Source: Trypanosoma brucei (Eukaryota). From it: 64,000 bases of DNA. A program made the translations under genes and the position numbers. Under the pieces are notes generated by a model. The model searched no databases. It was not told where the DNA came from and was given only the letters and a program-made list of their open reading frames with translations. Shown here in pieces: positions 8,414 to 40,187 of the stretch. The first letter of the stretch is position 1. The number at the start of each line of letters is the position of its first letter. The stretch is from contig AE017150.2 of NCBI GenBank assembly GCA_000002445.1, forward strand, positions 832,001-896,000, given 5' to 3'.

Positions 8414-8841
8414 TTACAGATAAGACTACGTGAAAAGGAAAAGAAAAAAAATAGAAATTTAAAAACTGCACTCACTCACAGAGAATATACATTACACGTC
8501 ACAAGCATTCAAATACAGCACAAAAATAAGGTTGACAACGAGCTTCCGGTGCACACACCAACCCGTAAACGAATAACAAAGCACATCAAAAACACAAAAC
8601 TACCAAGACAATCGATAAGGTAACTGTATGCCACGCCAACCAGTTGCAGCGCAATGCTCATACTGGCAAACGTGGCACACGCTGCGCCAAGGCTCACAGT
8701 ATCAACAGTGATGTAATCGACAGAGCGTTACCAAATACATCACCACGACAGGACATAGCACACTACGGAACCTGCAACATTACGATATAGCTGCAAAACA
8801 AAACAACAGGAAAAACAATTACTGTATATCCACAACACCGG

Positions 8842-9870
8842 TCACAGCTGCGCCCCATCACGCGTCCAGTACACCTCCCCACTCATTGCAGCCTCGTCCA
8901 TCTGCTTCCGCTTCTCACCTTCAGGGAGTCGGTAATTCATAAAAACAATACGCATCTCCTCTGGCGTCATGTCCTTCACCCAACCTCGTGCATTCAAGTA
9001 ACGTCGAGCAAGTTCCCGCTCCCTCAAATCACGATGATAAGGGCTCAGTGGGTGGCTCGCTCTCCACAGGGTATCCAGTAAACAGGGGTCACGCAAACCC
9101 TCCTCAATCTGTTCATCCGTCAGTGGTGACATATTGGGCCGGTGCAACCGCTCAATCAGTGGTGCCTCTTCAAGTTCACGCTGCCTCAACGTAGTATATT
9201 GTTCCATGTGTATACGCCTGTACCTTTCGCATTCCTCCGTGTACTGCTGCTCAGTCATATCTTTCACGGGGGAACTGTAAGGTGTATCTACGCCAATGAA
9301 ACAAACACCCATCCGCCTGGCTTGCCCAACAACGCGTCGTACACGGGTCTCCAGTAACGGGTACTCTGGACGTCCCCAACACAACGGTTTCATTTTCGCT
9401 ATTTCGTATGCCATCTCCAATGTCATCAGAGCACAGTAGTGCCCTCGCAGCGGCACAGGTCCCGTCTCCCGCCGCTTCTTCCGAAGTGCACGCAGAATGA
9501 ACCACGCAGTAGGTGGCGGTTCAATTGTAAAAAGATACGATTTGTCAAAGTACACTTGGATGCGAACAATCAGCTCGACATCTTCCTTGAAGTGTGGCTT
9601 CGTCCGGTCATTGAACACCTTCGCAAAATCCATCGCCTTCAGCCCAAGTTTCGAAAACTCTTGTCCCACGGGAGGACCCGTCGCCGCCTTCCCAGCCTTA
9701 ATAAAGAAACGCCAGTTGTGCAATACACGCTTCCCAGGAAATTCAGGTCGCCCAAATATATCCCTCGCCTTCTCAACCACCAAAGCTTCAGGCAGTCGGT
9801 TTGAACCAGGTTCTACACACACCGTCTTGGGCCGTGCCCTTAGTTGAAGGACGCCACACGCGCGGAGCAT
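8842..9870 (-). CDS. ribosomal protein L11-domain protein (likely mitochondrial large-subunit L11), copy 1
   Basis: 342-aa ORF. KAGKAATGPPVGQEFSKLGLKAMDFAKVFNDRTK resembles the L11 N-terminal domain consensus. An identical protein is encoded at 31965..32993. Confidence 0.65.
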   Translation of the reverse strand: MLRACGVLQLRARPKTVCVEPGSNRLPEALVVEKARDIFGRPEFPGKRVLHNWRFFIKAGKAATGPPVGQEFSKLGLKAMDFAKVFNDRTKPHFKEDVELIVRIQVYFDKSYLFTIEPPPTAWFILRALRKKRRETGPVPLRGHYCALMTLEMAYEIAKMKPLCWGRPEYPLLETRVRRVVGQARRMGVCFIGVDTPYSSPVKDMTEQQYTEECERYRRIHMEQYTTLRQRELEEAPLIERLHRPNMSPLTDEQIEEGLRDPCLLDTLWRASHPLSPYHRDLRERELARRYLNARGWVKDMTPEEMRIVFMNYRLPEGEKRKQMDEAAMSGEVYWTRDGAQL

Positions 9871-10412
9871 CAGTCAACTGTCACTAAATGGCTTACACAC
9901 AATTACTAGTTGTAAGTCCTTATATACAGTTGCGTACCAGAAGAGAAGAGGGAAGAGATAGTAACAGCAAGCATCCAAAGAAATGGGCGAGACGGTATAC
10001 AGGAAACATGTGTATGCATGTAGGCAGTAAGTAGAGCCCGTGCAGCAAGCAAAGGAAATGGTGAAACAGCACAATTACCGTATAGTGAAGAGAAGCTTCA
10101 GAAACACAAATACAACAAAATGTAAAGGGAAGGGAAGGAATAATACTGAGACCACACACACACGCACACAGAAAGAGAGAGAGAGAGAGACGTACAGACA
10201 AACAAGGAGAAAAAACTCCTCACGATGATTCACATTCCAACACGCGGCATACGACAGTTCCTACCGCAACCGCGTCGCGCCATATTAACGCACACACTCA
10301 CTCCATAAATGAATCAAATGTTCAGCACCCGCATCGATCACATCCTAAGCAATGCATTACTCAGTGCATGGCCAAGGGGAGAGTGCACATCCCAACAAGC
10401 TATAATAGCATC

Positions 10413-11393
10413 CTACTCAATTATACCACACAGAAACGACAAGAATAACAGGATACAACAAACAGGAAACGGCACCTTGTACAGAAGGAACACACTCAAT
10501 AGTGAGTACATCTCCCTCCCAGAATCAGGTGCAATAACATTCGTCATTCTGCTTGCCTCGCCGACAGCTGCTTCATACCCATTACTGCACCGACCGCTAG
10601 GAACAGTACCTGAAGCACAGTTAACAGGAGAATAAACCAATGGAGAAGCCGAAGCAGCAGTCTGATCCCCAGCACCCTTTGGGGAGTGACGGCTCCTCAA
10701 CGCTGTCGAAGGTGGAGACACCTCTCCTCCAGCATTCCTTACAGCTGAACCTAACTGTGGCTGTGCTGCCGGAGCTTTCTCCACAGCCGCAGTCTCACAA
10801 CCTTCCACAAGTCCTTCCACCTTTCCATGACTTCGCTTCATCACAAGGCTATCCGGAACACCCAACTCCCCATAAATACAGCGAAGTGCACACCGAACAG
10901 CATTCCGCTCCCTCGCCTGCACACGTCCACGTTGCTTCCAAAATGCAGCAGCGACGTCCGGACCGCTAGGGCCCTTGCTACTACAGTCACCTCCAAAGAA
11001 ACCACTCACAGACTCATACGGTGCCATAACTTCCCTCGGCACCACACATATATCCACGAACACCTCATCCCTTGTGCCAGCGTCTGGCAACTCCACAGCT
11101 CCTTCCTCCACGCCACCACGCCTCGCTGCGAGACGACGGAGCCTACGGATGTCAAGCATAAACTTCACCCTCACACATTCACCAGCAAATATCAGTCCAA
11201 CAGATGGTTGAACACCATAGCGATTGCGTACAGCACTGAGAACTTTGAACGCCACAACATTCTCACAAGGGTCCTCAGTACGTACAAGTAGACTACTTAA
11301 CTCGATAATATTCTCAATACTGGCATCCGTCAGAGGAGAAGGAAAGTACAGGCACTCCTGTGAAAAACAAACAATGCCCCCACCACCCTTCAT
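10413..11393 (-). CDS. conserved hypothetical protein (326 aa), copy 1
   Basis: Long ORF with coding-like composition and a polypyrimidine tract on the minus strand upstream. The copy at 33536..34516 differs by one residue (S to R). I recognise no domain. Confidence 0.5.
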   Translation of the reverse strand: MKGGGGIVCFSQECLYFPSPLTDASIENIIELSSLLVRTEDPCENVVAFKVLSAVRNRYGVQPSVGLIFAGECVRVKFMLDIRRLRRLAARRGGVEEGAVELPDAGTRDEVFVDICVVPREVMAPYESVSGFFGGDCSSKGPSGPDVAAAFWKQRGRVQARERNAVRCALRCIYGELGVPDSLVMKRSHGKVEGLVEGCETAAVEKAPAAQPQLGSAVRNAGGEVSPPSTALRSRHSPKGAGDQTAASASPLVYSPVNCASGTVPSGRCSNGYEAAVGEASRMTNVIAPDSGREMYSLLSVFLLYKVPFPVCCILLFLSFLCGIIE

Positions 11394-11893
11394 CGTGGAT
11401 GAAAGATACGAAACACTAATTACTCACCCGTAAGAAAGGACAGATACGAAATAGAGAAGAAAAACATAAACACATTCCCGGGAAGTAATGACAGTCACAG
11501 ATACAACAAGTATGAAAAAGAAGATATTACACCAATAATAAAATAGCAAAACACCAACCTCTAATACGGTCGAATAAATATAAACATATAACATGTCCGC
11601 TACGCAACAATTAAGCGAAACAAAAAACAATGAAAGGATAGAAAAAATACAGCGCAAACTTCGTTGGGTTGTCAAACAATTCAAAAACACAGATTATGTG
11701 GTTGCCCACAGCGCCAACAAATCATATAACCATGCCAAATAACGAGCTGAAAGCACTCCCCACTACGGTGTCATCCTCATGGTCATACCAATAAAGTAAA
11801 ATACAGAGCAAAAAAATGATCATACATACCATTCGAACGTATCATAGTACAATGAAAGAGTGACAAACATTTATGCAGCCACGCAACTCAACA

Positions 11894-12082
11894 TTACAAC
11901 ATATATATACAAACAGTATTAGGCATGGAGAAATACTCCTTCACATTAACAATCACGCGTCCATCATCACCATCAGCAGCAGTCACATGCAGCGAACACA
12001 CGGCAGTTAGCAATAATAAAATACCGCACAGGAGAGCAGCACGCGTAAAACCAAAATTCACCATACGGGTGTCCATGCTCAT
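11894..12082 (-). pseudogene. truncated 5' fragment of the lectin-like surface protein gene (first ~53 codons plus upstream region), copy 1
   Basis: Its 62-aa ORF shares MSMDTRMVNFGFTRAALLCGILLLLTAVCSLHVTAADGDDGRVIVNVKEYFSM exactly with the N-terminus of the 12902..13999 gene, then diverges and stops. It lies in a 395-bp element (11927-12322) repeated at 13845-14240. Confidence 0.6.
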
Positions 12083-12901
12083 TGTCAGTGTTGCTTCCTT
12101 ATGACTTTATCAAATACACACATATGCGGGAAAGAGGGAAGAGCGTGTGAGTAAAGGGGAAATGCAACAGTGACAATAGAAAAAGGAGTTACACAAGATA
12201 TCAAATAATCACACATACACTCGAGGATAATAAACAAGAAATATGAAAAGGATAACACAAATAATAATGGAAGAGAGCAGCCATATCACATATCCCAACA
12301 AATTGGTTAGTGAGACACAGGTACTCAAAACATTTATTATCATAATGGGCCAAGTATAACTCAGGGATTGAACACTATGGAACTCTCATTTAATACAACC
12401 TCATATAGATTGTTAAAATAATTAAGTGCTGCAAGTTACACGTATAGCAATACATCACACGTAACAGGGAGGACCTACAAGCCTCCCACATATACATGGA
12501 AGTAAAACATGAAATAACGCGAACTAAACATGACACCCACACACGAAATAAATAATCAACACCAACAACAACGAAACAATGGGACATCAAACAGTAAAGA
12601 TGGTTCAATGGGTCACACACTAAAAGAGCAATGATGTGGTCGGAGGGAAGTGATGCCACACATCGGAAGTCCCTCGCAGAGCCAACATGGTACAAGGAGA
12701 TCGTTAATATTAGGAACATAAAAGTAATAATTACATAAGAGAGTATTGAGCACTACTGAAAGTAATAATAGGAAGTGAAACAATACACGAAGCTAGAAAT
12801 TTTGACGGTCCGTAACGTAGGATGAAAGCGGCACAGTATTCATTACTCCACTTGATCCTAAACATCACTCAACCACCACCCATGTGATACACGATGTGAC
12901 G

Positions 12902-13999
12902 CTAATACGATTGACCGGTCATCATTTGGTTATAATATTGCAGGGCTAAGGGAGGAGCAGCAAAACCCTCTGGGGGAACAAAAGGTGTTGGCTCCAGGAC
13001 AAACAACGGCTCTCCAACAACTTCACGCAGCGTCATGGGAATGATCTCCTTTTTAACATTATAATCACAGAACCAACGTAAAAGGAAAAGCAGCAACACA
13101 ATGAGGGAAACAACAGAAATTAGAGCTATAAGAATAATGAGCAAATCAATCCTCTCTTCCAATGACACAGTTGTCACAGTAACTTCTTCATCCTTTGTCA
13201 CAGTTGGTTCCGGTACTTCGCCAGAGGCAGGTGCAGTTGTAGTTGTAGTGGTAGTTGTTGTGGTTGTCGTCGTGCTGATAGAATCATGGACCTCGCAAAC
13301 AACAACGTAGTCTTGAGACTTTGTTTCAAAGTTCTGACTTGTCCAACGAATAGTCCCAGAAGCCTCCCTGCCATCATACCAGGTAGTCACATCATCATCT
13401 TCATGGTACCATGAAAGGGTATACAACTGACCATGCTTGGGATATTCACTACCCCAAAAGGATGGGTAACCATTCATTGGAGCCGCAAAAGCGTATTTGA
13501 CATATGAACCACGCCAGAACGCCACCCCGTGACCATCAGGCAAAGCCTTTGCAAACAATCCCTTATTCCAACGATACACACAATGACGTGAAGATGCCGC
13601 GTCTCCAGGCTTACAACGCTTATCAGCCACAATGGCCCCGCCACTACTGTACACAGCATCTCCACCAAGGTAGCTGAAAGCATCCGAACCCGTTAACACA
13701 TCTTTCATTGCATCCTGCAAACTTTGGTGTGCCGCCTCCGTTTGATCGGCAGGAAGCACAGCGCCATTGTCGCGGCAATATGCTTCAGCATTGTTGTAAC
13801 TAACAAAGTACTTCCCATGACGACTAAATGCAAAATTGTCCATAGAGAAATACTCCTTCACATTAACAATCACGCGTCCATCATCACCATCAGCAGCAGT
13901 CACATGCAGCGAACACACGGCAGTTAGCAATAATAAAATACCGCACAGGAGAGCAGCACGCGTAAAACCAAAATTCACCATACGGGTGTCCATGCTCAT
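12902..13999 (-). CDS. type I membrane surface glycoprotein: signal peptide, C-type-lectin-like ectodomain, poly-Thr mucin-like stalk, single TM, short cytoplasmic tail (paralog A)
   Basis: 365 aa. The N-terminus has a hydrophobic signal peptide. The ectodomain has CTLD-like spacing (KYFVSYNNAEAYCRDNGAVLPADQTEAAHQSLQ ... WYDGREASGTIRWTSQNFE ... YVVVCEV). A run of 13 Thr precedes APASGEVPEPTVT, then the TM LIILIALISVVSLIVLLLFLL and tail RWFCDYNVKKE... The lectin assignment is tentative; the architecture is clear. Confidence 0.6.
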   Translation of the reverse strand: MSMDTRMVNFGFTRAALLCGILLLLTAVCSLHVTAADGDDGRVIVNVKEYFSMDNFAFSRHGKYFVSYNNAEAYCRDNGAVLPADQTEAAHQSLQDAMKDVLTGSDAFSYLGGDAVYSSGGAIVADKRCKPGDAASSRHCVYRWNKGLFAKALPDGHGVAFWRGSYVKYAFAAPMNGYPSFWGSEYPKHGQLYTLSWYHEDDDVTTWYDGREASGTIRWTSQNFETKSQDYVVVCEVHDSISTTTTTTTTTTTTTAPASGEVPEPTVTKDEEVTVTTVSLEERIDLLIILIALISVVSLIVLLLFLLRWFCDYNVKKEIIPMTLREVVGEPLFVLEPTPFVPPEGFAAPPLALQYYNQMMTGQSY

Positions 14000-15103
14000 T
14001 GTCAGTGTTGTTTCCTTATGACTTTATCAAATACACACATATGCGGGAAAGAGGGAAGAGCGTGTGAGTAAAGGGGAAATGCAACAGTGACAATAGAAAA
14101 AGGAGTTACACAAGATATCAAATAATCACACATACACTCGAGGATAATAAACAAGAAATATGAAAAGGATAACACAAATAATAATGGAAGAGAGCAGCCA
14201 TATCACATATCCCAACAAATTGGTTAGTGAGGCACAGGTACACGTCGTATTTGATACAATAGTGGAGAAACTAAAGCAGAAAGAATATACATTATTCAAC
14301 TCTTGTTTGGTACAACCCTACTGTGCGAGGTCACCCGGAGCATTCGAGAGTGATGAAAACCAAATCCTCGCCTATTCATTATCCACGTTAGTTGAGGGGC
14401 GGAAGTGCTGCGTACATCAACGCGCGGTAAGAAGCGAGTGAAAACCGACTTACATTTGTCGCGACCTTCTTCAGGTGACGTCCGTAGGTGTGCCTGATCA
14501 GGATACGGCCATCTAGTATGAGAAGTAACCGGCGACGCCGATCTATCCGAACAAATACTACAACAAACAGCATAGACACGGAAGCGGAGTGGGAAAGCAT
14601 CACCAGCTCAGTTGTACTCAGTGTGCCAATAGGGTGGTTTTTTTTCTGCTATAAAAAAAGAACTTGAAGCATAAAGAAACGATGGTCCGCCTCCAGCTGC
14701 GTACCGGCGCACAGCGGAACCCCCATTGAATTTAAAACATCGTGCAGGTGGAGGTGCGGCAAGTTTACTCCCTCCCTTCCCTTCATTGTCTTCTTGGGTA
14801 CCTCGCGCATGTCCCAACAAACCACACAATCTCCAACCCGAGGACAACCGATAACGGGCATACGCTTTGTCTCCCCGCAAAGTCTCCAAGCGCGCACGTA
14901 TTCACATCACTATCGCAGCCTGTCATATTGCATACAAGTCGCTGTGGCCTTGCGAAAAAAAGCTCCCAGCTAGCGTAAACTAAACTCTCTCCAAGCACCA
15001 GGAGACAGAGTTGCAAATGCACACCACCACTCAGTCCCAACCTCGCTTCTTCGATCTGTTCATCTGTCAACACCAGCTCTCCCAAGTCCGTTCATCCATT
15101 GTG

Positions 15104-20210: not shown

Positions 20211-20335
20211 CTACACGTCCACAACGCTTCGAAAATGGACGCCCTTCCGCAATCCCGTTTTCCCCTTCCCCACACTGTAGCGGTTACCACAAACATCACG
20301 GGTGGAAAGACAATAAAACATGGGCGGCCGTGTTG

Positions 20336-27289: not shown

Positions 27290-27869
27290 GGCTGTAGCCG
27301 GAGGTCGTTAGCAACTTTGTGTAGTGACAGAGTAGCCTCTCTTCACCGCCTTCCCTCCCTTCCTTTTTAGAGGGTGGTAAATCATCAGGCGGTAAATAAT
27401 AATAATAAGAACGAATAAAAAAGTCAAGATACAGAATAACGTTTGTACGTGCTCACACGTGTGTGACAGGGAGGAAAAATGTATTCTCTATAATAATTTA
27501 ACTACTCCAGAAGACGGACGACCCTTCAAAATCAGCCTCCGCGCACGCACGCTACCAACAACAAACTTTCGTGCAAATGATGCGGCGTGTACTTTAACAC
27601 ACAGACACACACCAACTTTTGGCGGCATTTGCAGGAAAGAAGGAAAACTAATGAACTTCACACATATATGCACAACAAAAGTGGAAATCAGCAGCTCAAA
27701 CAACAGCCCCAATGCCCTCACTCAAGAGGACAAAGCACTTTTTCATTACCGCGGGGAAGTAAGCCCACCAGTTTGAAGGGTGCGGATCTGAATGAGTAAT
27801 AAAGAATATATATATGTATATATAAGTAATGGATTGATATCGCTTGGCCTACCACTTTCTACAACCGCC

Positions 27870-28310
27870 TCAATCGACATGAACCCGACCAGTCTGACTC
27901 CTCCACCGCACCGCCAGGGCAAACGTGATAAAGTTGATCGCATACATTGAGCAGCAAACCACACATAAATCTTTCAAAATAAACACCAAAACAAATAGCA
28001 ACACAACCGATAAGACACAGCTACACGCACTTAACCACAATAAGAGAAGAGAACACCTGCATGCCATCAACTCTATCATATAGAAAGCGATACCCAACAA
28101 TGCGTTTGACACTTCCGGTAATCCAACCAGCCGGGAAATGGAGCGGTACTCGGAGGTGAAAACACGGGTGCATGAAAACATCCCGACATCGCAGTAGGCA
28201 CGGTACGTATCACCATATCTTTGCGCCCTATTTGCTTGCAACTCCACGTAGTAAGCATAGCATGACAACAATAAGTTGGTCATGATGAGGAAAGGCGGAA
28301 GAAGTAGCAT
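27870..28310 (-). CDS. vitamin K epoxide reductase (VKOR) family membrane protein
   Basis: 146-aa ORF. YRAYCDVGMFSCTRVFTS matches the VKORC1 segment YRALCDVGTAISCSRVFSS. It also has the VKOR CXXC active-site motif CVVCCSMYAINF (compare CIVCITTYAINV) and four hydrophobic helices. Confidence 0.6.
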   Translation of the reverse strand: MLLLPPFLIMTNLLLSCYAYYVELQANRAQRYGDTYRAYCDVGMFSCTRVFTSEYRSISRLVGLPEVSNALLGIAFYMIELMACRCSLLLLWLSACSCVLSVVLLFVLVFILKDLCVVCCSMYAINFITFALAVRWRSQTGRVHVD

Positions 28311-30133: not shown

Positions 30134-30653
30134 AGCCTTCGCCGAAACCGAGATTTCAGTTGTAACTGCGGTCTAATGCTTCACAACGAGACTCCTTCTT
30201 GTTCCTTCTCGTCCTTGATCACGAAGGATTGCTTTCTTTCTTTCAAGACCCTCCTCACTTTTCACAATATTTCCTTATCTGCTGTAGCGGCGGTTATGTC
30301 ACTCCCCTACAGTGAGTACGTGAGGCGTTGCAAATTCACCCCAAACCAGTTTGCACAAGCGGGCACAAAATAATGACAGCAGGAATAATGCAAAGGATAG
30401 GAAAAAAAAAATAATGCACACAGCAATAGCGCCCATCAGTCCGTCAGGGATATGAACTTAGCAGTAGAGGCCTAAGTCATAAATAAAAAAGAAAGTTCCC
30501 TCCCGATAACACCAACAGCGAAGGGAAACTAACACCGAAGTCTCGTAAACAAGGGAGAAAAATGAGTAGTGAATGAGAGCCACATAAAGCCCTGCTGTGG
30601 GGCGTAAGTTGTATTTTAAATCTTTTCTTAAAAAAATCTGCGCAACAAATTGG

Positions 30654-31562
30654 TCACGCAACACCCAAATCACGCTGGTATTTCTTCAACTGCTGCCGGA
30701 ATCCCGCATTTGGGGAGGCAACAGGCCGTTTACGCTGGATAAGTGCGATTACACTGTCCGCTGGCATACGCAACTTTCTAATAAGATATGCGGCAGCAAT
30801 TGTTGGAGCACGGGATATACCGGCCCCGCAATGTACAAGCACAGAGGAGCATTGCCCCACAATCGCTGACTCAATAAAGTTATACGTCTTCTCGAAAAAA
30901 ATTGAAATGTTGTAATTAGGTGCATCCTGCGCAGGGACCGTCATGTATTTGAAATCATTGGGGAATCGTGGAAGTACATCAATACAACAAAGTATATGCG
31001 TCACTCCTCGCTGCTGCAGAAGAATTTTGTTTGACGCTGGGTGATAGGAACCAATAAATAAACCTGGCACAACCTCATGCATGCTCTGCACTTGGTACAT
31101 GTTGCCCTGCAGGAAGAGCGGTTGTTCAGCACCAGGGGAGAGCGGAATTTTTGTACCACACTCCCATAGCGCATTCACTTCAGCAGCCCTATCCGCATAG
31201 GCCTCTAGCATAACATTCCGAAGATCTGAACGCGTGCTTTCTACTAAATCCAACTGCACAGGTACGTTAGTGACAGCCATACGATATCGCTCTAATGCCT
31301 GGTCGACAGTGGATGATAAAAGAGCATTAGAGGAATCCAATGCGCCCTTTTTCGCAGCCATTGAACGTTCTTCACCCACACTAATATTGCAACTAACAGA
31401 TGGCACGGCTTCTGAAGAACTGTGTTGCGAAATAAAGCGTATAACCGCAAAAACCTTTTCAACATCAACCATCGAAACCCCGAATCCCTTTCCAAGCTCA
31501 GGAGACGTTCCGGACACCCCCGGTCGCTGGCGGTTCATTGCAGATGCACCCCGTCTCACCAT
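30654..31562 (-). CDS. dual-specificity protein phosphatase
   Basis: 302 aa with the catalytic HCX5R P-loop VLVHCGAGISRAPTIAAAYLI and a typical DSP fold context. Confidence 0.7.
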   Translation of the reverse strand: MVRRGASAMNRQRPGVSGTSPELGKGFGVSMVDVEKVFAVIRFISQHSSSEAVPSVSCNISVGEERSMAAKKGALDSSNALLSSTVDQALERYRMAVTNVPVQLDLVESTRSDLRNVMLEAYADRAAEVNALWECGTKIPLSPGAEQPLFLQGNMYQVQSMHEVVPGLFIGSYHPASNKILLQQRGVTHILCCIDVLPRFPNDFKYMTVPAQDAPNYNISIFFEKTYNFIESAIVGQCSSVLVHCGAGISRAPTIAAAYLIRKLRMPADSVIALIQRKRPVASPNAGFRQQLKKYQRDLGVA

Positions 31563-31964
31563 ACTTAAACTGATAAAAAAACAGCCTTAACTACAAAAGG
31601 GATATGCCTAAAAAAAACCTAAATAAAAGATTCAAATACAGCACAAAAATAAGGTTGACAACGAGCTTCCGGTGCACACACCAACCCGTAAACGAATAAC
31701 AAAGCACATCAAAAACACAAAACTACCAAGACAATCGATAAGGTAACTGTATGCCACGCCAACCAGTTGCAGCGCAATGCTCATACTGGCAAACGTGGCA
31801 CACGCTGCGCCAAGGCTCACAGTATCAACAGTGATGTAATCGACAGAGCGTTACCAAATACATCACCACGACAGGACATAGCACACTACGGAACCTGCAA
31901 CATTACGATATAGCTGCAAAACAAAACAACAGGAAAAACAATTACTGTATATCCACAACACCGG

Positions 31965-32993
31965 TCACAGCTGCGCCCCATCACGCGTCCAGTACACCTC
32001 CCCACTCATTGCAGCCTCGTCCATCTGCTTCCGCTTCTCACCTTCAGGGAGTCGGTAATTCATAAAAACAATACGCATCTCCTCTGGCGTCATGTCCTTC
32101 ACCCAACCTCGTGCATTCAAGTAACGTCGAGCAAGTTCCCGCTCCCTCAAATCACGATGATAAGGGCTCAGTGGGTGGCTCGCTCTCCACAGGGTATCCA
32201 GTAAACAGGGGTCACGCAAACCCTCCTCAATCTGTTCATCCGTCAGTGGTGACATATTGGGCCGGTGCAACCGCTCAATCAGTGGTGCCTCTTCAAGTTC
32301 ACGCTGCCTCAACGTAGTATATTGTTCCATGTGTATACGCCTGTACCTTTCGCATTCCTCCGTGTACTGCTGCTCAGTCATATCTTTCACGGGGGAACTG
32401 TAAGGTGTATCTACGCCAATGAAACAAACACCCATCCGCCTGGCTTGCCCAACAACGCGTCGTACACGGGTCTCCAGTAACGGGTACTCTGGACGTCCCC
32501 AACACAACGGTTTCATTTTCGCTATTTCGTATGCCATCTCCAATGTCATCAGAGCACAGTAGTGCCCTCGCAGCGGCACAGGTCCCGTCTCCCGCCGCTT
32601 CTTCCGAAGTGCACGCAGAATGAACCACGCAGTAGGTGGCGGTTCAATTGTAAAAAGATACGATTTGTCAAAGTACACTTGGATGCGAACAATCAGCTCG
32701 ACATCTTCCTTGAAGTGTGGCTTCGTCCGGTCATTGAACACCTTCGCAAAATCCATCGCCTTCAGCCCAAGTTTCGAAAACTCTTGTCCCACGGGAGGAC
32801 CCGTCGCCGCCTTCCCAGCCTTAATAAAGAAACGCCAGTTGTGCAATACACGCTTCCCAGGAAATTCAGGTCGCCCAAATATATCCCTCGCCTTCTCAAC
32901 CACCAAAGCTTCAGGCAGTCGGTTTGAACCAGGTTCTACACACACCGTCTTGGGCCGTGCCCTTAGTTGAAGGACGCCACACGCGCGGAGCAT
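31965..32993 (-). CDS. ribosomal protein L11-domain protein (mitochondrial L11-like), copy 2
   Basis: 342-aa translation identical to 8842..9870. Confidence 0.65.
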   Translation of the reverse strand: MLRACGVLQLRARPKTVCVEPGSNRLPEALVVEKARDIFGRPEFPGKRVLHNWRFFIKAGKAATGPPVGQEFSKLGLKAMDFAKVFNDRTKPHFKEDVELIVRIQVYFDKSYLFTIEPPPTAWFILRALRKKRRETGPVPLRGHYCALMTLEMAYEIAKMKPLCWGRPEYPLLETRVRRVVGQARRMGVCFIGVDTPYSSPVKDMTEQQYTEECERYRRIHMEQYTTLRQRELEEAPLIERLHRPNMSPLTDEQIEEGLRDPCLLDTLWRASHPLSPYHRDLRERELARRYLNARGWVKDMTPEEMRIVFMNYRLPEGEKRKQMDEAAMSGEVYWTRDGAQL

Positions 32994-33535
32994 CAGTCAA
33001 CTGTCACTAAATGGCTTACACACAATTACTAGTTGTAAGTCCTTATATACAGTTGCGTACCAGAAGAGAAGAGGGAAGAGATAGTAACAGCAAGCATCCA
33101 AAGAAATGGGCGAGACGGTATACAGGAAACATGTGTATGCATGTAGGCAGTAAGTAGAGCCCGTGCAGCAAGCAAAGGAAATGGTGAAACAGCACAATTA
33201 CCGTATAGTGAAGAGAAGCTTCAGAAACACAAATACAACAAAATGTAAAGGGAAGGGAAGGAATAATACTGAGACCACACACACACGCACACAGAAAGAG
33301 AGAGAGAGAGAGACGTACAGACAAACAAGGAGAAAAAACTCCTCACGATGATTCACATTCCAACACGCGGCATACGACAGTTCCTACCGCAACCGCGTCG
33401 CGCCATATTAACGCACACACTCACTCCATAAATGAATCAAATGTTCAGCACCCGCATCGATCACATCCTAAGCAATGCATTACTCAGTGCATGGCCAAGG
33501 GGAGAGTGCACATCCCAACAAGCTATAATAGCATC

Positions 33536-34516
33536 CTACTCAATTATACCACACAGAAACGACAAGAATAACAGGATACAACAAACAGGAAACGGCACCT
33601 TGTACAGAAGGAACACACTCAATAGTGAGTACATCTCCCTCCCAGAATCAGGTGCAATAACATTCGTCATTCTGCTTGCCTCGCCGACAGCTGCTTCATA
33701 CCCATTACTGCACCGACCGCTAGGAACAGTACCTGAAGCACAGTTAACAGGAGAATAAACCAATGGAGAAGCCGAAGCAGCAGTCTGATCCCCAGCACCC
33801 TTTGGGGAGTGACGGCTCCTCAACGCTGTCGAAGGTGGAGACACCTCTCCTCCAGCATTCCTTACAGCTGAACCTAACTGTGGCTGTGCTGCCGGAGCTT
33901 TCTCCACAGCCGCAGTCTCACAACCTTCCACAAGTCCTTCCACCTTTCCATGACTTCGCTTCATCACAAGGCTATCCGGAACACCCAACTCCCCATAAAT
34001 ACAGCGAAGTGCACACCGAACAGCATTCCGCTCCCTCGCCTGCACACGTCCACGTTGCTTCCAAAATGCAGCAGCGACGTCCGGACCGCTAGGGCCCTTT
34101 CTACTACAGTCACCTCCAAAGAAACCACTCACAGACTCATACGGTGCCATAACTTCCCTCGGCACCACACATATATCCACGAACACCTCATCCCTTGTGC
34201 CAGCGTCTGGCAACTCCACAGCTCCTTCCTCCACGCCACCACGCCTCGCTGCGAGACGACGGAGCCTACGGATGTCAAGCATAAACTTCACCCTCACACA
34301 TTCACCAGCAAATATCAGTCCAACAGATGGTTGAACACCATAGCGATTGCGTACAGCACTGAGAACTTTGAACGCCACAACATTCTCACAAGGGTCCTCA
34401 GTACGTACAAGTAGACTACTTAACTCGATAATATTCTCAATACTGGCATCCGTCAGAGGAGAAGGAAAGTACAGGCACTCCTGTGAAAAACAAACAATGC
34501 CCCCACCACCCTTCAT
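33536..34516 (-). CDS. conserved hypothetical protein (326 aa), copy 2
   Basis: One amino-acid difference from 10413..11393 (SRKGPSG versus SSKGPSG). Confidence 0.5.
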   Translation of the reverse strand: MKGGGGIVCFSQECLYFPSPLTDASIENIIELSSLLVRTEDPCENVVAFKVLSAVRNRYGVQPSVGLIFAGECVRVKFMLDIRRLRRLAARRGGVEEGAVELPDAGTRDEVFVDICVVPREVMAPYESVSGFFGGDCSRKGPSGPDVAAAFWKQRGRVQARERNAVRCALRCIYGELGVPDSLVMKRSHGKVEGLVEGCETAAVEKAPAAQPQLGSAVRNAGGEVSPPSTALRSRHSPKGAGDQTAASASPLVYSPVNCASGTVPSGRCSNGYEAAVGEASRMTNVIAPDSGREMYSLLSVFLLYKVPFPVCCILLFLSFLCGIIE

Positions 34517-35016
34517 CGTGGATGAAAGATACGAAACACTAATTACTCACCCGTAAGAAAGGACAGATACGAAATAGAGAAGAAAAACATAAACACATTC
34601 CCGGGAAGTAATGACAGTCACAGATACAACAAGTATGAAAAAGAAGATATTACACCAATAATAAAATAGCAAAACACCAACCTCTAATACGGTCGAATAA
34701 ATATAAACATATAACATGTCCGCTACGCAACAATTAAGCGAAACAAAAAACAATGAAAGGATAGAAAAAATACAGCGCAAACTTCGTTGGGTTGTCAAAC
34801 AATTCAAAAACACAGATTATGTGGTTGCCCACAGCGCCAACAAATCATATAACCATGCCAAATAACGAGCTGAAAGCACTCCCCACTACGGTGTCATCCT
34901 CATGGTCATACCAATAAAGTAAAATACAGAGCAAAAAAATGATCATACATACCATTCGAACGTATCATAGTACAATGAAAGAGTGACAAACATTTATGCA
35001 GCCACGCAACTCAACA

Positions 35017-35205
35017 TTACAACATATATATACAAACAGTATTAGGCATGGAGAAATACTCCTTCACATTAACAATCACGCGTCCATCATCACCATCAGC
35101 AGCAGTCACATGCAGCGAACACACGGCAGTTAGCAAATATAAAAGACCGCACAGGAGAGCAGCACGCGTAAAACCAAAATTCACCATACGGGTGTCCATG
35201 CTCAT
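35017..35205 (-). pseudogene. truncated 5' fragment of the lectin-like surface protein gene, copy 2
   Basis: Shares the signal-peptide N-terminus with the 36049..37104 gene, then diverges to the same PNTVCIYML stop as copy 1. It has 2 substitutions relative to the copy-1 fragment. Confidence 0.6.
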
Positions 35206-36048
35206 TGTCAGTGTTGCTTCCTTATGAGTTTATCAAATACACACATATGCGGGAAAGAGGGAAGAGCGTGTGAGTAAAGGGGAAATGCAACAGTGACAAT
35301 AGAAAAAGGAGTTACACAAGATATCAAATAATCACACATACACTCGAGGATAATAAACAAGAAATATGAAAAGGATAACACAAATAATAATGGAAGAGAG
35401 CAGCCATATCACATATCCCAACAAATTGGTTAGTGAGACACAGGTACTCAAAACATTTATTATCATAATGGGCCAAGTATAACTCAGGGATTGAACACTA
35501 TGGAACTCTCGTTTAATGTAACCTCATATAGATTGTTAAAATTATCAAGTGCTGCAAGTTACACGTATAGCAATACATCACACGTAACAGGGAGGACCTA
35601 CAAGCCTCCCACATATACATGGAAGTAAAACATGAAATAACGCGAACTAAACATGACACCCACACACGAAATAAATAATCAACACTAACAACAACGAAAC
35701 AATGGGACATCAAACAGTAAAGATGGTTCAATGGGTCACACACTAAAAGAACAATGATGTGGTCGGAGGGAAGTGATGCCACACATCGGAAGTCCCTCGC
35801 AGAGCCAACATGGTACAAGGAGACCGTTAATATTAGGAACATAAAAGTAATAATTATATAAGAGAGTATTGAGCACTACTGAAAGTAATAGTAGGAAGTG
35901 AAACAATACACGAAGCTAGAAATTGTGACGGTCCGTAACGTAGGATGAAAGCGGTACAGTATTCATTACTCCACTTGATCCTAAACATCACTCAACCACC
36001 ACCCATGTGATACACGATGTGACGCTAATATTATTCACTGGTTCTCAT

Positions 36049-37104
36049 TTAGCCATAATATTGCAGGGCTAAGGGAGGAGCATCAAAACCCTCTGGGGGA
36101 GCAAAAGGTGTTGGCTCCAGGACAAACAACGGTTCTCCAACAACTTCACGCAGCGTCATGGGAATGATCTCCTTTTTAACATTATAATCACAGAACCAAC
36201 GTAAAAGGAAAAGCAGCAACACAATGAGGGAAACAACAGAAATTAGAGCTATGAGAATAATGTGCCAATTACTTCTCTCTTCCAATGACGCAGTTGTCAC
36301 AGTAACTTCTTCATCCTTTGTCACAGTTGGTTCCGGTACTTCGCCTGAGGCAGGTGCAGCTGTAGTTGTTGTCGTCGTGCTGATAGAATCGTGGACCTCG
36401 CAAACAACAACGTAGTCTTGAGACTTTGTTTCAAAGTTCTGACTTGTCCATCGGATAGTCCCAGAAGCCTCCCTGCCATCGTACCAGGTAGTCACATCTT
36501 CGTGTTCATGGTACCATGAAAGGGTATACAACTGACCACTCTTGGGATATTCACTACCCCAAAAGGATGGGTAACCATTCATTGGGGCCGCAAAAGCGTA
36601 TTTGACATATGAACCACGCCAGAACGCCACCCCGTGACCATCAGGCAAAGCCTTTGCAAACAATCCCTTATTCCAACGATACACACAATGACGTGAAGAT
36701 GCCGCGTCTCCAGGCTTACAACGCTTATCAGCTTCAAATACCCTTGTACTGCTGTACACAGCATCTCCACCAAGGTAGCTGACGGCCTCAAACTCAAAAA
36801 TTACACTCTTCATAGCATCCTGCAAACTTTGGTGTGCCGCCTCCGTTTGATCGGCAGGAAGCACAGCACCGTTGTCGACACAATATGCTTCAGCATTATC
36901 GTAACCAACAATGTACCGTTCGTGACGACTAAATGCAAAATTGTCCATAGAGAAATACTCCTTCACATTAACAATCACGCGTCCATCATCATCATCAGCA
37001 GCAGTCACATGCAGCGGACACACGGCAGTTAGCAATAATAAAATACCGCACAGGAGAGCAGCACGCGTAAAACCAAAATTCACCATACGGGTGTCCATGC
37101 TCAT
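36049..37104 (-). CDS. type I membrane surface glycoprotein with a lectin-like ectodomain, short poly-Thr stalk and TM (paralog B)
   Basis: 351 aa with the same architecture as 12902..13999. It differs in clustered ectodomain substitutions (SRHERYIVGYDNAEAYCVDNG, KSVIFEFEAV, SSTRVFEAD, HEHED). The Thr run is 5 rather than 13, and the C-terminus is shorter (QYYG stop). Confidence 0.6.
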   Translation of the reverse strand: MSMDTRMVNFGFTRAALLCGILLLLTAVCPLHVTAADDDDGRVIVNVKEYFSMDNFAFSRHERYIVGYDNAEAYCVDNGAVLPADQTEAAHQSLQDAMKSVIFEFEAVSYLGGDAVYSSTRVFEADKRCKPGDAASSRHCVYRWNKGLFAKALPDGHGVAFWRGSYVKYAFAAPMNGYPSFWGSEYPKSGQLYTLSWYHEHEDVTTWYDGREASGTIRWTSQNFETKSQDYVVVCEVHDSISTTTTTTAAPASGEVPEPTVTKDEEVTVTTASLEERSNWHIILIALISVVSLIVLLLFLLRWFCDYNVKKEIIPMTLREVVGEPLFVLEPTPFAPPEGFDAPPLALQYYG

Positions 37105-39087
37105 TGTCAGTGTTGTTTCCTTATGAGTCTATCAAATACACACATATGCGGGAAAGAGGGAAGAGCGTGTCAGTAAAGGGGAAATGCAACAGTGACAATA
37201 GAAAAAGGAGTTACACAAGATATCAAATAATCACACATACACTCGAGGATAATAAACAAGAAACATGAAAAAGGATAACACAAATAATAATGGAAGAGAG
37301 CAGCCATATCACATATCCCAACAAATTGGTTAGTGAGGCACAGGTACACGTCGTATTTGATACAATAGTGGAGAAACTAAAGCAGAAAGAATATACATTA
37401 TTCAACTCTTGTTTGGTACAACCCTACTGTGCGAGGTCACCCGGAGCATTCGAGAGTGATGAAAACCAAATCCTCGCCTATTCATTATCCACGTTAGTTG
37501 AGGAGCGGAACCAACACCGACCGTCACTTCGCAAAGACGAAAAAAAATATGCAGATACAGCATAACATATCAGCTACATGCATGGTTTATGTACTGGAGC
37601 ACAGCTGGACAGTCAGCGACATTTGTCACGTAATTGCGAAACATTGTCCGTTGTTTCGTGCTTGCTGAGAGACTCCTGTAAAGTACATACTCGTCAAAAT
37701 AACCTTAAGGAAGAAAGAGAAGAAAACTAGTGGCAAGCCTTTACGACAGTAGTGAAGTTTTTGCACAAATCCTTCATCACGTGCAAAACTGTTGTAGTCA
37801 TCATCTGTACACTAAATCATTGTGCGCGCCCCATTATTCATTGCTTACTATGTCGCTTTATTGCACTACGCTACGCTGTATAACCTCATCGTCTTGGAAG
37901 TAACGTGGGTCAGATGTGGACCGTTATGAAAAAGTCGTACAACCACCACACGTTGGAAGTGCCCGTGGCGAAGGCAGCGCCGTTGGAGAAGATCAACTTA
38001 TCTTTTGTCCACGTTACGTGCAAACGCAGTTACATCCTTCGGAAACCTTCTGAAGAGCATTAAACCTTCGAAAGACGTTACGCATTTTATCTCGGTCGTG
38101 CCCATACTTACGGCTATGACTCCTCAAAGGATAAATTGAGTAATTATATATGAGTAATCACTCTTCATTTGTCAAAAAAAAAAAGATGAAAGGAAAGGAA
38201 AGGGGGCAAGTTTTAAGATATTGATGTTGTGTAACGGACATGAGTTGCCCTCCATTCCATTTGAAAAAAAAAACAAGATATTTCCTTTATGTTACACACT
38301 CTCTCACATTGTTGTGATTCAGCATTATGAAGCTTACTGCTGCCACTGCCGCTGCCACGCGTTGATAACAGCAACAGCGAGTAGACGGTTTCAGAGGCCA
38401 CCCTCGCCATTTACCGTCCTTCTCGTTTACTTCTCTCCTTTACTAGTTTTGAGACTTCTTTTTTTTTTCTTTTTGCAGCTATCCCCGTGCCTTGTGTCCT
38501 TCGCGTTTGCACAACATAAAGGGGAACTTTGGAGGAGGGGGGGAGGCGATGCCTTTTTATAATGTCATGTGCTCTGTACGAAGCAGAGGAGGGGAGTTAA
38601 ACAGCGTTGTGCTGCTGGCACGAGACGGGGGTTAGACATTTCCTCCAATGCGCATGTCAAAATACACGGGAGGGCTCAAGCAATGTGCAGCACTCACTTT
38701 ACCAGGCAAACCACCTAAAAACAGTCTCTCCACCCCGAGTCAGCATCAAGAGCAGAGGATGGTTGGAGTTAGGATGAAAAAAAAAACTGAGAACGTGAAC
38801 AAGTTAGCGAATGTAAAGTTGAGGGAATCAAGGTACTTTCGTTTTTACACACACACACATACCTACCTACTTGAGCACAGAGCTAAAAAAGAAAATGGGT
38901 AAACTATTTCCCACGCTACTCCACACCATTCTGTCTGACGGAGAGTCCTATGAAGGCAAGAAGCGCCACTCGCTAACCCAACCCATTTCTCCTTCTTTAC
39001 GTGTATCGAAGTTTGTGGAATAAGAAGGAAACTCCTAAAACATACACAAACACACACACACGTATATATATATATACTTCACCACTC

Positions 39088-40125: not shown

Positions 40126-40175
<50 letters not shown>

Positions 40176-40180: not shown

Positions 40181-40187
40181 CCTCCAT

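What the first reader, a model, noticed from the sequence alone, without database searches (positions are those of the whole stretch)
8507..37512. Dispersed 5.9-kb segmental duplication with a left-to-right divergence gradient
Two units (8507-14406 and 31630-37512), ~17 kb apart, carry the same gene set in the same orientation: the L11-like gene, a 326-aa hypothetical, a truncated surface-gene fragment and a full surface-protein gene. The left ~3.4 kb (L11 plus the hypothetical) differs by only one nucleotide (10977 g versus 34100 t). The fragment and spacer show a few percent divergence. The surface-protein gene differs at tens of positions plus indels. Such a gradient within one unit suggests either recent gene conversion homogenising the housekeeping end, or diversifying selection/relaxed constraint on the surface-gene end. 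An assembly collapse or expansion artefact is also possible. My recollection that the T. brucei reference annotates two L11 paralogs on chromosome 2 supports a real duplication.
Basis: seen in the sequence. Interest (0 to 1): 0.7.

Follow-up and report, generated by a model that had tools for sequence, protein, structure and literature searches.

The report
Old duplicated gene block, recently re-homogenised
A 5.9-kb block of genes occurs twice, 17 kb apart, on Trypanosoma brucei chromosome 2; it is a real and probably ancient duplication, and one half was recently copied from one site to the other, which is a well-known kind of genome behaviour.

Summary
The duplication is real: 8507-14404 and 31630-37510 align at 98.1% over 5900 nt, in T. 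b. brucei TREU927 chromosome 2. Each unit, read on the minus strand, holds an IGP40-family gene, a 55-codon IGP40 5' fragment, an MSP-domain gene (326 aa) and the mitoribosomal uL11m gene.

Divergence is a step, not a gradient. Positions 8507-12013 differ at one site. Positions 12014-14162 carry about 95 clustered substitutions plus indels. The last 242 nt are again almost identical.

Comparison with DAL972 and IVM-t1 explains the step:
- **Left part:** both TREU927 copies share 20 derived sites, mostly non-coding, and no site is specific to one copy in all three strains. This indicates concerted evolution by ectopic gene conversion.
- **IGP40 gene:** 29 of 90 variable sites separate copy A from copy B in all three strains, so that divergence is older than the strains. 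dN/dS is 0.39, and the differences form patches partly shared with other IGP40 paralogs.

T. vivax carries the same block at the same two positions with the same step. T. cruzi and Leishmania have a single uL11m, at the copy-B position.

An assembly artefact and recent diversifying selection are both rejected. "Surface protein" is a mislabel, because IGP40 is ER-resident. This is an ordinary mechanism, cleanly shown.

The parts
8507..14404 (-). Duplication copy A. It lies between the ALG12-like mannosyltransferase gene (6137-8413) and a 940-aa hypothetical gene (15104-17926).
   Evidence: Self-alignment; flanking genes; sharp edges with no flanking repeats.
31630..37510 (-). Duplication copy B. 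It lies between the dual-specificity phosphatase gene (30654-31562) and the GDSL esterase gene (39088-39825). This is the ancestral position of uL11m.
   Evidence: T. cruzi and Leishmania have L11 directly upstream of DSP.
8842..9870 (-). uL11m gene, copy A (342 aa), the mitochondrial ribosomal protein L11.
   Evidence: Pfam Ribosomal_L11_N and Ribosomal_L11. Matches PDB 6HIV chain AK over residues 1-342, E 1e-238. Nucleotide-identical to copy B.
31965..32993 (-). uL11m gene, copy B (342 aa).
10413..11393 (-). MSP-domain hypothetical protein, copy A (326 aa), with a C-terminal hydrophobic tail (VAP-like). It contains the only A/B difference in the left part (10977, codon 139, Ser in A and Arg in B).
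   Evidence: Weak Pfam Motile_Sperm hit. Orthologues in T. grayi and T. vivax are annotated as MSP-domain proteins. Sequence.
33536..34516 (-). MSP-domain hypothetical protein, copy B (326 aa).
8507..12013 (.). Homogenised tract in copy A (partner 31630-35136): 3507 nt with 1 difference. Its right end falls between 11995, the last TREU927-specific site shared by both copies, and 12014, the first A/B difference. That is inside the IGP40 5' fragment.
11924..12324 (-). 401-nt internal repeat, fragment copy A: 242 nt of IGP40 upstream sequence plus the first ~55 codons (coding remnant 11918-12082). It is the truncated last member of a former IGP tandem array.
   Evidence: A truncated IGP also precedes the MSP gene in both T. 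vivax loci.
35047..35447 (-). 401-nt internal repeat, fragment copy B (coding remnant 35041-35205).
12325..12901 (-). Spacer, the IGP40 3' region (partner 35448-36048). It has 12 A/B substitutions in 577 nt. Six sites are TREU927-specific and shared by both copies, a sign of older conversion.
12902..13999 (-). IGP40-family gene, A type (365 aa): signal peptide, IGP C-type-lectin domain, Thr run, transmembrane segment and cytoplasmic tail.
   Evidence: Pfam DUF5075, E 5e-84. Both published IGP40 qPCR primers match exactly. Alignment.
36049..37104 (-). IGP40-family gene, B type (351 aa): shorter Thr run, earlier stop codon, and B-specific patches at aa 62-69, 100-108 and 120-124.
13841..14241 (-). 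401-nt repeat at the 5' end of the full IGP40 gene, copy A (partner 36946-37347 in copy B).
14163..14404 (.). Upstream end of the unit (partner 37269-37510). It is again almost identical, with 1 difference in 242 nt.

Best explanation
This is a genuine dispersed segmental duplication of the block [IGP40 gene, truncated IGP40 5' fragment, MSP-domain gene, uL11m gene] on T. brucei chromosome 2.

**Origin (inferred).** The block most likely arose in the copy-B position, upstream of the DSP phosphatase gene, where uL11m sits in T. cruzi and Leishmania. It was then copied to the position upstream of ALG12 before T. vivax and T. brucei diverged.

**Maintenance.** Since then the two copies have not evolved independently. 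Homologous recombination between them (interlocus, or ectopic, gene conversion) repeatedly overwrites one copy with the other across the MSP/uL11m part.
- In the TREU927 lineage the latest event covered at least 3.5 kb. It ran from the left edge of homology (8507/31630) to a point between 11995 and 12014, inside the IGP40 fragment. Only one later substitution separates the two copies there.
- The IGP40 gene itself escaped that event. It keeps an older divergence that is specific to each position (A type and B type in all three strains). That divergence is itself a patchwork produced by short conversion tracts among IGP40 paralogs.

**What is shown and what is inferred.**
- Shown: the sequence patterns within and between genomes.
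- Inferred: the recombination mechanism, its direction, and why tracts stop at the IGP40 gene. The likely reason is that dense mismatches impede strand exchange, as shown experimentally for T. brucei recombination in PMC1904282. Selection for two distinct IGP40 isoforms may also contribute.
For: **1. The duplication is real and has a step profile.** The probability of at most 1 of 97 substitutions in the left 3507 nt is 1e-36.

**2. Concerted evolution in the left 3.4 kb (8507-11923).**
- TREU927 A against B: 1 difference.
- TREU927 against DAL972 or IVM-t1, either copy: 22-29 differences.
- DAL972 A against B: 12. IVM-t1 A against B: 11.
- Over 8507-12013, 20 sites are TREU927-specific and carried by both copies. 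Fifteen are non-coding and 3 are third codon positions.
- No site separates A from B in all three strains.
- Had the copies evolved independently since the strain split, about 24 differences would be expected. P(at most 1) is 9e-10.

**3. The IGP40 coding sequence behaves the opposite way.**
- TREU927 A against B: 73 of 921.
- A against A across strains: 10-23. B against B across strains: 24-40.
- 29 of 90 variable sites are position-specific in all three strains.

**4. Mosaic structure of the IGP40 genes.**
- DAL972 copy B switches from B type to A type and back. IVM-t1 copy A carries a B-type patch at nt 833-870.
- Several states are shared with three paralogs of the IGP40 array in L013.
- The differences are significantly clustered.

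**5. No sign of positive selection.** dN/dS is 0.39. For aa 37-130, dS is 0.36, against 2% divergence in the adjacent spacer.

**6. Age of the duplication.**
- T. vivax has IGP x4, fragment, MSP, uL11m, ALG12, RRM at the A position (L008).
- It has IGP x2, fragment, MSP, DSP, Phd, NIF, WD40 at the B position (L007).
- Its two copies are 98-100% identical over the MSP part but only 83-84% over the full IGP genes, the same step.
- T. cruzi has GDSL, L11, DSP. Leishmania has L11 directly upstream of DSP but no GDSL hit. Neither has IGP or MSP there.

**7. Recombination in T. brucei is impeded by mismatches** and uses short-patch repair (PMC1904282).
Against: - No conversion event was observed directly, and its direction is unknown.
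- TREU927 reads were not available. Some consensus mixing between two 99.97%-identical copies in the original assembly cannot be formally excluded.
- The OVI contig used as a fourth sequence is probably a collapse of both copies.
- DAL972 contigs were ordered on the TREU927 template (PMC2854126), so that assembly is not fully independent in structure.
- The T. congolense locus could not be recovered. The claim that the duplication predates the salivarian split therefore rests on T. vivax alone, and on parsimony about two shared insertion sites.
- No donor was found for the two B-specific patches at aa 100-108 and 120-124.
- Most A/B differences in the left part of DAL972 and IVM-t1 sit at a CA/GA microsatellite, where changes can recur independently.
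Confidence: 0.85

Rival explanations
1. The whole 5.9-kb unit was duplicated only very recently within T. brucei. The IGP40 end then diverged quickly through diversifying selection or relaxed constraint, while the housekeeping end stayed unchanged.
For: The left 3.5 kb is almost identical. The amino-acid differences in IGP40 fall in dense patches in the lectin domain.
Against: - The A-type and B-type IGP40 alleles are shared by TREU927, DAL972 and IVM-t1: 29 of 90 variable sites are position-specific.
- Both copy positions exist in all of these strains and in T. vivax.
- dN/dS is 0.39, and synonymous divergence (0.13 overall, 0.36 in aa 37-130) is hundreds of times higher than in the left part.
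- Twenty derived sites are shared by both TREU927 copies.
Confidence: 0.04
2. One copy is an assembly artefact: a duplicated placement of a single locus, or two haplotypes placed in series.
For: Repeats of this kind do cause trouble in other assemblies. OVI contigs break at the edges of copy B. The DAL972 scaffold has a 100-N gap and a doubled segment in copy A.
Against: - The two copies have different flanking genes on both sides.
- They carry different IGP40 alleles that recur at the same positions in DAL972 and in the gap-free IVM-t1 chromosome record.
- OVI contigs run 31 nt and about 121 nt into copy B from its own unique flanks.
- T. vivax has both positions occupied.
Confidence: 0.02
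3. The duplication is not ancient. T. brucei and T. vivax each copied the IGP/MSP(/uL11m) block independently between the same two positions. The near-identity in T. brucei then simply reflects a young duplication within the T. brucei group, followed by conversion limited to TREU927.
For: - Copies within each species are far more alike than copies between species (MSP protein 41% identity between species). This is what independent duplication would also give.
- IGP arrays expand and contract independently between taxa (PMC4497807).
- T. congolense could not be examined.
Against: - It requires the same two insertion sites, directly upstream of ALG12 and directly upstream of DSP, to be used twice.
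- It also requires a truncated IGP copy directly upstream of MSP in all four copies.
- In T. vivax uL11m is found only at the non-ancestral A position, and homology in the B copy stops 19 nt into the uL11m coding sequence. That fits loss from an older two-copy state.
- Even under this rival, gene conversion is still needed to explain the TREU927 pattern.
Confidence: 0.1
4. The conversion tracts stop at IGP40 not passively, because of mismatches, but because selection removes recombinants that homogenise the two IGP40 isoforms. On this view the A and B types have different functions.
For: - A and B types persist in three strains, including a B-specific early stop and B-specific lectin-domain patches.
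- T. vivax shows the same contrast, with MSP about 99% identical and IGP 83-84%.
Against: - A/B patches do get exchanged. DAL972 copy B and IVM-t1 copy A are mosaics.
- OVI, and possibly one DAL972 haplotype, lack the A-copy IGP40 altogether.
- dN/dS gives no sign of adaptive divergence.
- A mismatch barrier alone is sufficient (PMC1904282).
Confidence: 0.2

Closest known systems
Ectopic gene conversion and concerted evolution of duplicated genes in T. brucei (Jackson 2007, BMC Evol Biol 7:54, PMC1855330). Examples include the ISG75 array with its nearby segmental duplicate, and Tb105a with Tb10.70.2860.
   Same: Non-allelic copies on one chromosome exchange sequence. Coding and flanking regions show different histories. 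The IGP40 array Tb927.2.5290 is itself one of the arrays analysed there (dS 0.156, dN 0.078), close to the A/B values found here (0.134 and 0.052).
   Different: That study covered tandem arrays of more than 3 copies and found ectopic conversion very rare, with two cases and tracts of about 30-200 bp. Here the partners are 23 kb apart with 8-9 unrelated genes between them. The tract is at least 3.5 kb and spans two unrelated genes plus their intergenic DNA. This locus was not mentioned in the passages my term searches of that paper returned.
Segmental duplications of putative membrane-protein genes in T. b. brucei compared with T. b. gambiense (Jackson et al. 2010, PMC2854126, Figure 2: three-gene unit repeated 5 times on chromosome 9).
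   Same: This is also a multi-gene unit. One coding sequence is identical in all copies, while the neighbouring membrane-protein genes vary substantially between copies.
   Different: Those repeats are tandem and subspecies-specific, so they are recent. The block here is dispersed, shared by all the T. brucei-group genomes examined, and present in T. vivax.
Classical gene conversion between T. brucei housekeeping paralogs: PGK genes (Le Blancq et al. 1988) and hsp70 genes (Lee et al. 1990). Both are cited in PMC1855330; the details are from my own knowledge.
   Same: Segmental conversion homogenises part of a duplicated unit and leaves other parts divergent.
   Different: Those genes are adjacent to each other. 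Here the partners are separated by 17 kb of unique genes.
IGP (invariant glycoprotein) family, subfamily IGP40 (Allison et al. 2014, PMC4497807).
   Same: Both full genes have the IGP C-type-lectin domain and type I membrane layout, and both published IGP40 primers match them exactly.
   Different: The paper treats the family as tandem arrays that expand and contract. It does not describe this two-site block in the text passages I retrieved. The gene identifiers of these two copies were not confirmed.

Membership tests
Paralogs under concerted evolution by interlocus gene conversion | Two copies at different loci, each with its own unique flanks. | tested here: met
   The flanks differ on both sides and the edges are sharp. 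The same arrangement is seen in DAL972 and IVM-t1.
Paralogs under concerted evolution by interlocus gene conversion | Paralogs within a genome are more alike than orthologues between genomes, although the duplication predates the split. | tested here: met
   In the left 3.4 kb there is 1 difference within TREU927 and 22-29 between strains. The duplication predates the split, as shown by position-specific IGP40 alleles and by T. vivax.
Paralogs under concerted evolution by interlocus gene conversion | Derived substitutions at neutral sites are shared by both copies of one lineage. | tested here: met
   There are 20 TREU927-specific sites in both copies. Fifteen are non-coding and 3 are third codon positions.
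Paralogs under concerted evolution by interlocus gene conversion | An abrupt tract boundary, with divergent sequence beyond it. | tested here: met
   The boundary lies between 11995 and 12014. The step is visible in 100-nt windows.
Paralogs under concerted evolution by interlocus gene conversion | A non-reciprocal, recombination-dependent transfer is observed directly (RAD51/BRCA2 dependence, donor unchanged). | not testable with these tools
   This needs experiments or pedigree and clone resequencing.
IGP40 subfamily of trypanosome invariant glycoproteins | IGP-type C-type-lectin ectodomain. | tested here: met
   Pfam PF16825, E 5.5e-84 (copy A) and 1.3e-85 (copy B), full-length profile match 1-173.
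IGP40 subfamily of trypanosome invariant glycoproteins | High identity to IGP40 members (85-100% within a subfamily according to PMC4497807). | tested here: met
   Identity to chromosome 2 paralogs P0029, P0028 and P0040 is 83-87%, so P0029 at 83% is just below the published range. Both IGP40-specific qPCR primers match exactly. Identity to the other subfamilies is 32-34%.
IGP40 subfamily of trypanosome invariant glycoproteins | ER localisation, not cell surface. | not testable with these tools
   Reported for the tagged representative Tb927.2.5330, with no surface signal (PMC4497807). Not tested for these two genes.
Mitochondrial ribosomal protein uL11m | L11 N-terminal and RNA-binding domains, and identity with the protein seen in the T. 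brucei mitoribosome structure. | tested here: met
   Pfam PF03946 and PF00298. Matches PDB 6HIV/6HIX chain AK 'uL11m' over 1-342 of 342 residues, E 1.3e-238.
Assembly artefact (false duplication) | The second copy lacks independent support: no unique junctions, and absent from other assemblies. | tested here: not met
   Unique junctions and copy-specific alleles recur in DAL972, IVM-t1 and OVI.
Gene pair under positive diversifying selection | dN/dS above 1 in the divergent gene or domain. | tested here: not met
   Nei-Gojobori estimates give 0.39 for the whole gene, 0.35 for aa 37-130 and 0.17 for aa 131-240. Only the short TM/tail segment reaches 0.99, on 8 differences.

The most novel reading that the evidence does not exclude
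The boundary between a homogenised part and a divergent part is not an accident of the last conversion event. It may be a feature kept for the whole history of salivarian trypanosomes. In both T. brucei and T. vivax, the MSP(/uL11m) part of the block is kept nearly identical between the two sites. The adjacent IGP genes stay distinct at each site. This would mean selection maintains two site-specific ER lectin isoforms against a constant homogenising flux. The MSP/VAP-like gene and the IGP genes might also form a functional ER gene pair that is worth keeping in two doses.
Probability: 0.15. Interest if true: 0.45.

Novelty: new member of a known kind. Interest (0 to 1): 0.3.

Why it matters
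The locus gives a clean, datable example of long-tract (at least 3.5 kb) ectopic gene conversion between dispersed repeats in the transcribed core of a T. brucei chromosome. The one systematic survey reported such events as very rare and short (PMC1855330).

It has three practical uses:
- It warns that the two uL11m and two MSP genes cannot be told apart by short reads, RNAi or tagging.
- It shows that the IGP40 copies at these sites are stable, strain-shared isoforms.
- It offers a natural substrate for measuring how far apart, and how mismatched, chromosomal repeats can be and still recombine in trypanosomes.

It does not reveal a new mechanism.

Tried and rejected
- **Retroelement or flanking repeats at the junctions.** None were found. 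Repeat searches at seed 14 and 20 over 6000-40500 and the whole window returned only the unit itself, the 401-nt internal repeat and microsatellites. No inverted repeats were found, and the only tandem repeat was (CA)27 at 40127.
- **Structured RNA genes in the unit.** There was no Rfam hit anywhere in the window.
- **Donor for the B-specific IGP40 patches.** None was found among TREU927 P0029, three IVM-t1 array genes, or IGP34/IGP48-like proteins. DNA of the TREU927 paralog could not be fetched.
- **T. congolense copy number.** The two IL3000 contigs retrieved hold only IGP arrays, with no MSP or uL11m.
- **T. grayi context.** The MSP orthologue sits on a 4.2-kb contig next to a lipase gene, which is uninformative.
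- **ORF 12390-12719 (109 aa).** It has no Pfam hit and lies in the IGP40 3' spacer, so I treated it as non-coding.
- **Literature.** The chromosome II sequencing paper (El-Sayed et al. 2003) is not held in the library. My recalled gene identifiers Tb927.2.4740 and Tb927.2.4890 returned no paper and are not used as evidence.
- **Purifying selection as the cause of the identical left part.** Rejected, because 1.4 kb of it is non-coding and those sites do vary between strains.

Full report
**Source of the window.** Exact look-ups of eight encoded proteins place the window on the 1,193,948-nt record of Trypanosoma brucei brucei TREU927. The locus tags of relatives (DPX39_0200..., TCIL3000_2_...) and the IGP40 gene name Tb927.2.5330 (PMC4497807) agree with chromosome 2. 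All long ORFs in the region are on the minus strand, as expected for one polycistronic unit.

A BLAST self-comparison gives a single long alignment, 8507-14404 against 31630-37510: 98.085% identity over 5900 columns, with 92 mismatches and 4 gaps. It also finds a 401-nt element present twice in each unit, at 11924-12324, 13841-14241, 35047-35447 and 36946-37347.

Base-by-base, positions 8507-12013 contain one difference, 10977 G against 34100 T, exactly as reported. All other differences lie between 12014 and 14162. The last 242 nt, 14163-14404, are again almost identical, with one difference at 14398. The profile is therefore a step with patches, not a monotonic gradient.

The non-uniformity is far beyond chance. 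The probability that at most 1 of 97 substitutions falls in the left 3507 nt is 1e-36. Within the divergent part the substitutions are also clustered: the index of dispersion is 4-6 and 0 of 5000 permutations reach it. The edges of the unit are sharp. No other repeat, inverted repeat or tandem repeat flanks them.

**What the genes are.** Read on the coding (minus) strand, each unit holds four elements.
- **A full IGP-family gene.** Pfam PF16825, "IGP family C-type lectin domain", matches at E 5e-84 to 1e-85. Both published IGP40 qPCR primers match both copies exactly. Identity is 83-87% to other chromosome 2 IGP40 paralogs and 32-34% to the other subfamilies. IGP40 was reported as ER-localised with no surface signal (PMC4497807), so "surface protein" is a mislabel.
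- **A 401-nt repeat of the IGP40 upstream region plus its first ~55 codons,** ending in a stop. This looks like the truncated last member of a former tandem array.
- **A 326-aa protein with a weak MSP-domain match**. Its orthologues in T. grayi and T. vivax carry the MSP annotation. It ends in a hydrophobic tail, so it resembles a VAP-like tail-anchored protein.
- **The 342-aa L11 protein.** This is the mitoribosomal uL11m seen in PDB 6HIV chain AK, matching residues 1-342 at E 1e-238.

**It is not an assembly artefact.** The two copies have different neighbours. Copy A lies between ALG12 and the 940-aa gene; copy B lies between the DSP phosphatase and the GDSL esterase. Both positions are occupied in T. 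b. gambiense DAL972 (L005, L006) and in the gap-free chromosome record of T. b. equiperdum IVM-t1 (L002, L003). In T. equiperdum OVI, two contigs run from the unique flanks 31 nt and about 121 nt into copy B and then stop. This is the signature of a repeat in a short-read assembly.

**Cross-strain test.** I aligned the six complete units (TREU927, DAL972 and IVM-t1, copies A and B) plus the OVI contig.

In the left 3.4 kb (8507-11923):

| Comparison | Differences |
|---|---|
| TREU927 A vs B | 1 |
| TREU927 vs DAL972 or IVM-t1, either copy | 22-29 |
| DAL972 A vs B | 12 |
| IVM-t1 A vs B | 11 |

- None of the 40 variable sites separates A from B in all strains.
- Over 8507-12013, 20 sites are TREU927-specific and present in both copies. 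Fifteen are non-coding and three are third codon positions.
- If the copies had evolved independently since the strain split, about 24 differences would be expected. P(at most 1) is 9e-10.

In the IGP40 coding sequence the pattern is reversed:

| Comparison | Differences |
|---|---|
| TREU927 A vs B | 73 of 921 |
| A vs A across strains | 10-23 |
| B vs B across strains | 24-40 |

- 29 of 90 variable sites are position-specific in all three strains.

The duplication is therefore older than these strains. The IGP40 genes have kept position-specific identities. The MSP/uL11m part has been overwritten within the TREU927 (and OVI) lineage, which is concerted evolution by ectopic gene conversion.

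The last shared derived site is at 11995 and the first A/B difference is at 12014. The tract therefore ended inside the IGP40 fragment. The spacer (12325-12901) is intermediate, with 12 A/B differences but also 6 TREU927-specific sites shared by both copies. This points to earlier events with other end-points.

**The divergent end.**
- Nei-Gojobori estimates for IGP40 A against B give dS 0.134, dN 0.052 and a ratio of 0.39. In the most variable stretch (aa 37-130) dS is 0.36 and the ratio is 0.35.
- Synonymous divergence that high, next to a spacer at 2% and a left part at 0.03%, does not fit recent selection-driven change. It fits old sequence.
- A site-by-site display shows mosaics. DAL972 copy B is B type, then A type (CDS nt ~307-360), then B type again. 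IVM-t1 copy A carries a B-type patch at nt 833-870. Many states are shared with the three genes of the IGP40 array elsewhere on the IVM-t1 chromosome (L013).
- Short-patch exchange among IGP40 paralogs is therefore the likely source of the clustered differences.
- Two B-specific patches (aa 100-108 and 120-124) found no donor among the sequences I could obtain. This remains unexplained.

**Age and origin.**
- In T. cruzi the order is GDSL esterase, L11, DSP, thioredoxin-like, VKOR, NIF, WD40. Leishmania shows the same run from L11 onward, but no GDSL hit upstream of L11. Neither has IGP or MSP genes there. The copy-B position is therefore ancestral for uL11m.
- T. vivax has both positions occupied. 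L008 reads IGP x4, truncated IGP, MSP, uL11m, ALG12, RRM (position A). L007 reads IGP x2, truncated IGP, MSP, DSP, Phd, NIF, WD40 (position B, without uL11m).
- Homology between the two T. vivax loci ends about 19 nt into the uL11m coding sequence. This fits loss of uL11m from an older two-copy state.
- The T. vivax copies show the same step as T. brucei: 98-100% identity per 100 nt across the MSP gene, 68-96% in the fragment, and 83-84% for the full IGP genes.
- The most parsimonious reading is one duplication before the T. vivax/T. brucei split, followed by recurrent conversion in each lineage.
- Independent duplications into the same two sites cannot be strictly excluded, because T. congolense could not be examined.

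**Mechanism.** The sequence patterns are shown. The following points are inferred.
- The agent is homologous recombination between direct repeats 23 kb apart on one chromosome, or on its sister or homologue.
- Tracts run to the end of homology on the left.
- Tracts tend to stop where IGP40 heterology begins. T. brucei recombination is impeded by base mismatches and repairs heteroduplex in short patches (PMC1904282).
- Selection for two distinct IGP40 isoforms is a possible additional cause. I give it about 0.2.

**Comparison with what is known.** Concerted evolution and gene conversion in T. brucei gene families are well documented. Jackson (2007) analysed tandem arrays, including the IGP40 array Tb927.2.5290. 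That study found ectopic conversion very rare, with two cases and tracts of tens to hundreds of bp. Jackson et al. (2010) describe multi-gene segmental duplications in which one gene is identical in all copies while the neighbouring membrane-protein genes vary.

The present locus is the same kind of phenomenon. It is unusual only in the length of the tract, the distance between the partners, and the apparent age of the duplication. The two gene copies are already annotated in the reference. I found no description of this locus's history in the papers searched, but the original chromosome II paper was not available.

**Verdict.** The other two alternatives are rejected, and two gene labels are corrected. 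The finding is a new, well-resolved example of a known process, of modest interest.

Noticed in passing
L001 7384-7947 (T. equiperdum OVI), corresponding to window 13841|12324; L006 5538-9470 (DAL972): The OVI contig joins the two 401-nt IGP repeats directly, so copy A has no full IGP40 gene there. The DAL972 scaffold carries both an IGP-containing and an IGP-less version of the 940-aa-gene-to-IGP-upstream segment. The two versions are 99.77% identical and separated by 100 N. This could be a deletion allele formed by unequal crossing-over between the 401-nt repeats, possibly heterozygous in DAL972, or it could be an assembly problem.
   Followed up: partly
L007 6731-7420 and L008 10001-11029 (T. 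vivax): T. vivax has uL11m only at the derived A position. The B-position copy ends about 19 nt into the uL11m coding sequence, so the ancestral copy seems to have been deleted.
   Followed up: partly
L007 9373-10024 (T. vivax): There is no tblastn hit to the VKOR-like gene between the phosducin-like and NIF genes in T. vivax. T. brucei (window 27870-28310), T. cruzi and Leishmania all have it there.
   Followed up: no
window 10413-11393 and 33536-34516: The 326-aa MSP-domain protein ends in a hydrophobic tail (…LLSVFLLYKVPFPVCCILLFLSFLCGIIE). This suggests a VAP-like tail-anchored membrane protein. In both T. brucei and T. vivax it always sits directly downstream of ER-resident IGP genes.
   Followed up: no
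window 10977 / 34100: The only A/B difference in 3.5 kb changes MSP codon 139 from Ser (AGC, copy A) to Arg (AGA, copy B). All other strains have the copy-A state, except the OVI contig at position A, which shows the copy-B state. The allele has either moved between copies or the OVI consensus is a collapse of both copies.
   Followed up: partly
window 10153-10196 and 33276-33319; 40127-40181: A CA/GA microsatellite in the MSP-uL11m intergenic region holds most of the indels and clustered differences seen between strains in the otherwise homogenised part. These include a 10-nt insertion in copy A of DAL972 and IVM-t1. A (CA)27 tract lies at 40127-40181, where alignments to other strains also break.
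   Followed up: partly
window 36049-36075 (end of IGP40 copy B) against 12902-12928: B-type IGP40 has an in-frame stop 8 codons earlier than A type (…QYYG* against …QYYNQMMTGQSY*). The early stop is shared by the B copies of TREU927, DAL972 and IVM-t1.
   Followed up: partly
window 36733-36814 (IGP40 copy B, aa 100-124): Two dense patches (SVIFEFEAV and TRVFE) are shared by TREU927 and IVM-t1 copy B. They are absent from DAL972 copy B, from copy A and from all sampled paralogs. No donor sequence was found.
   Followed up: partly
window 11918-12082 and 35041-35205: The truncated IGP40 fragments read …EYFSMPN, like the paralogs of the distant IGP40 array, whereas the adjacent full genes read …EYFSMDN. 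Fragment A is closer to the 5' end of full gene A (3 differences) than full gene A is to full gene B (7 differences). This hints at exchange between a fragment and its neighbouring full gene.
   Followed up: no
window 1-64000: No Rfam family reaches its gathering score anywhere in the window.
   Followed up: yes
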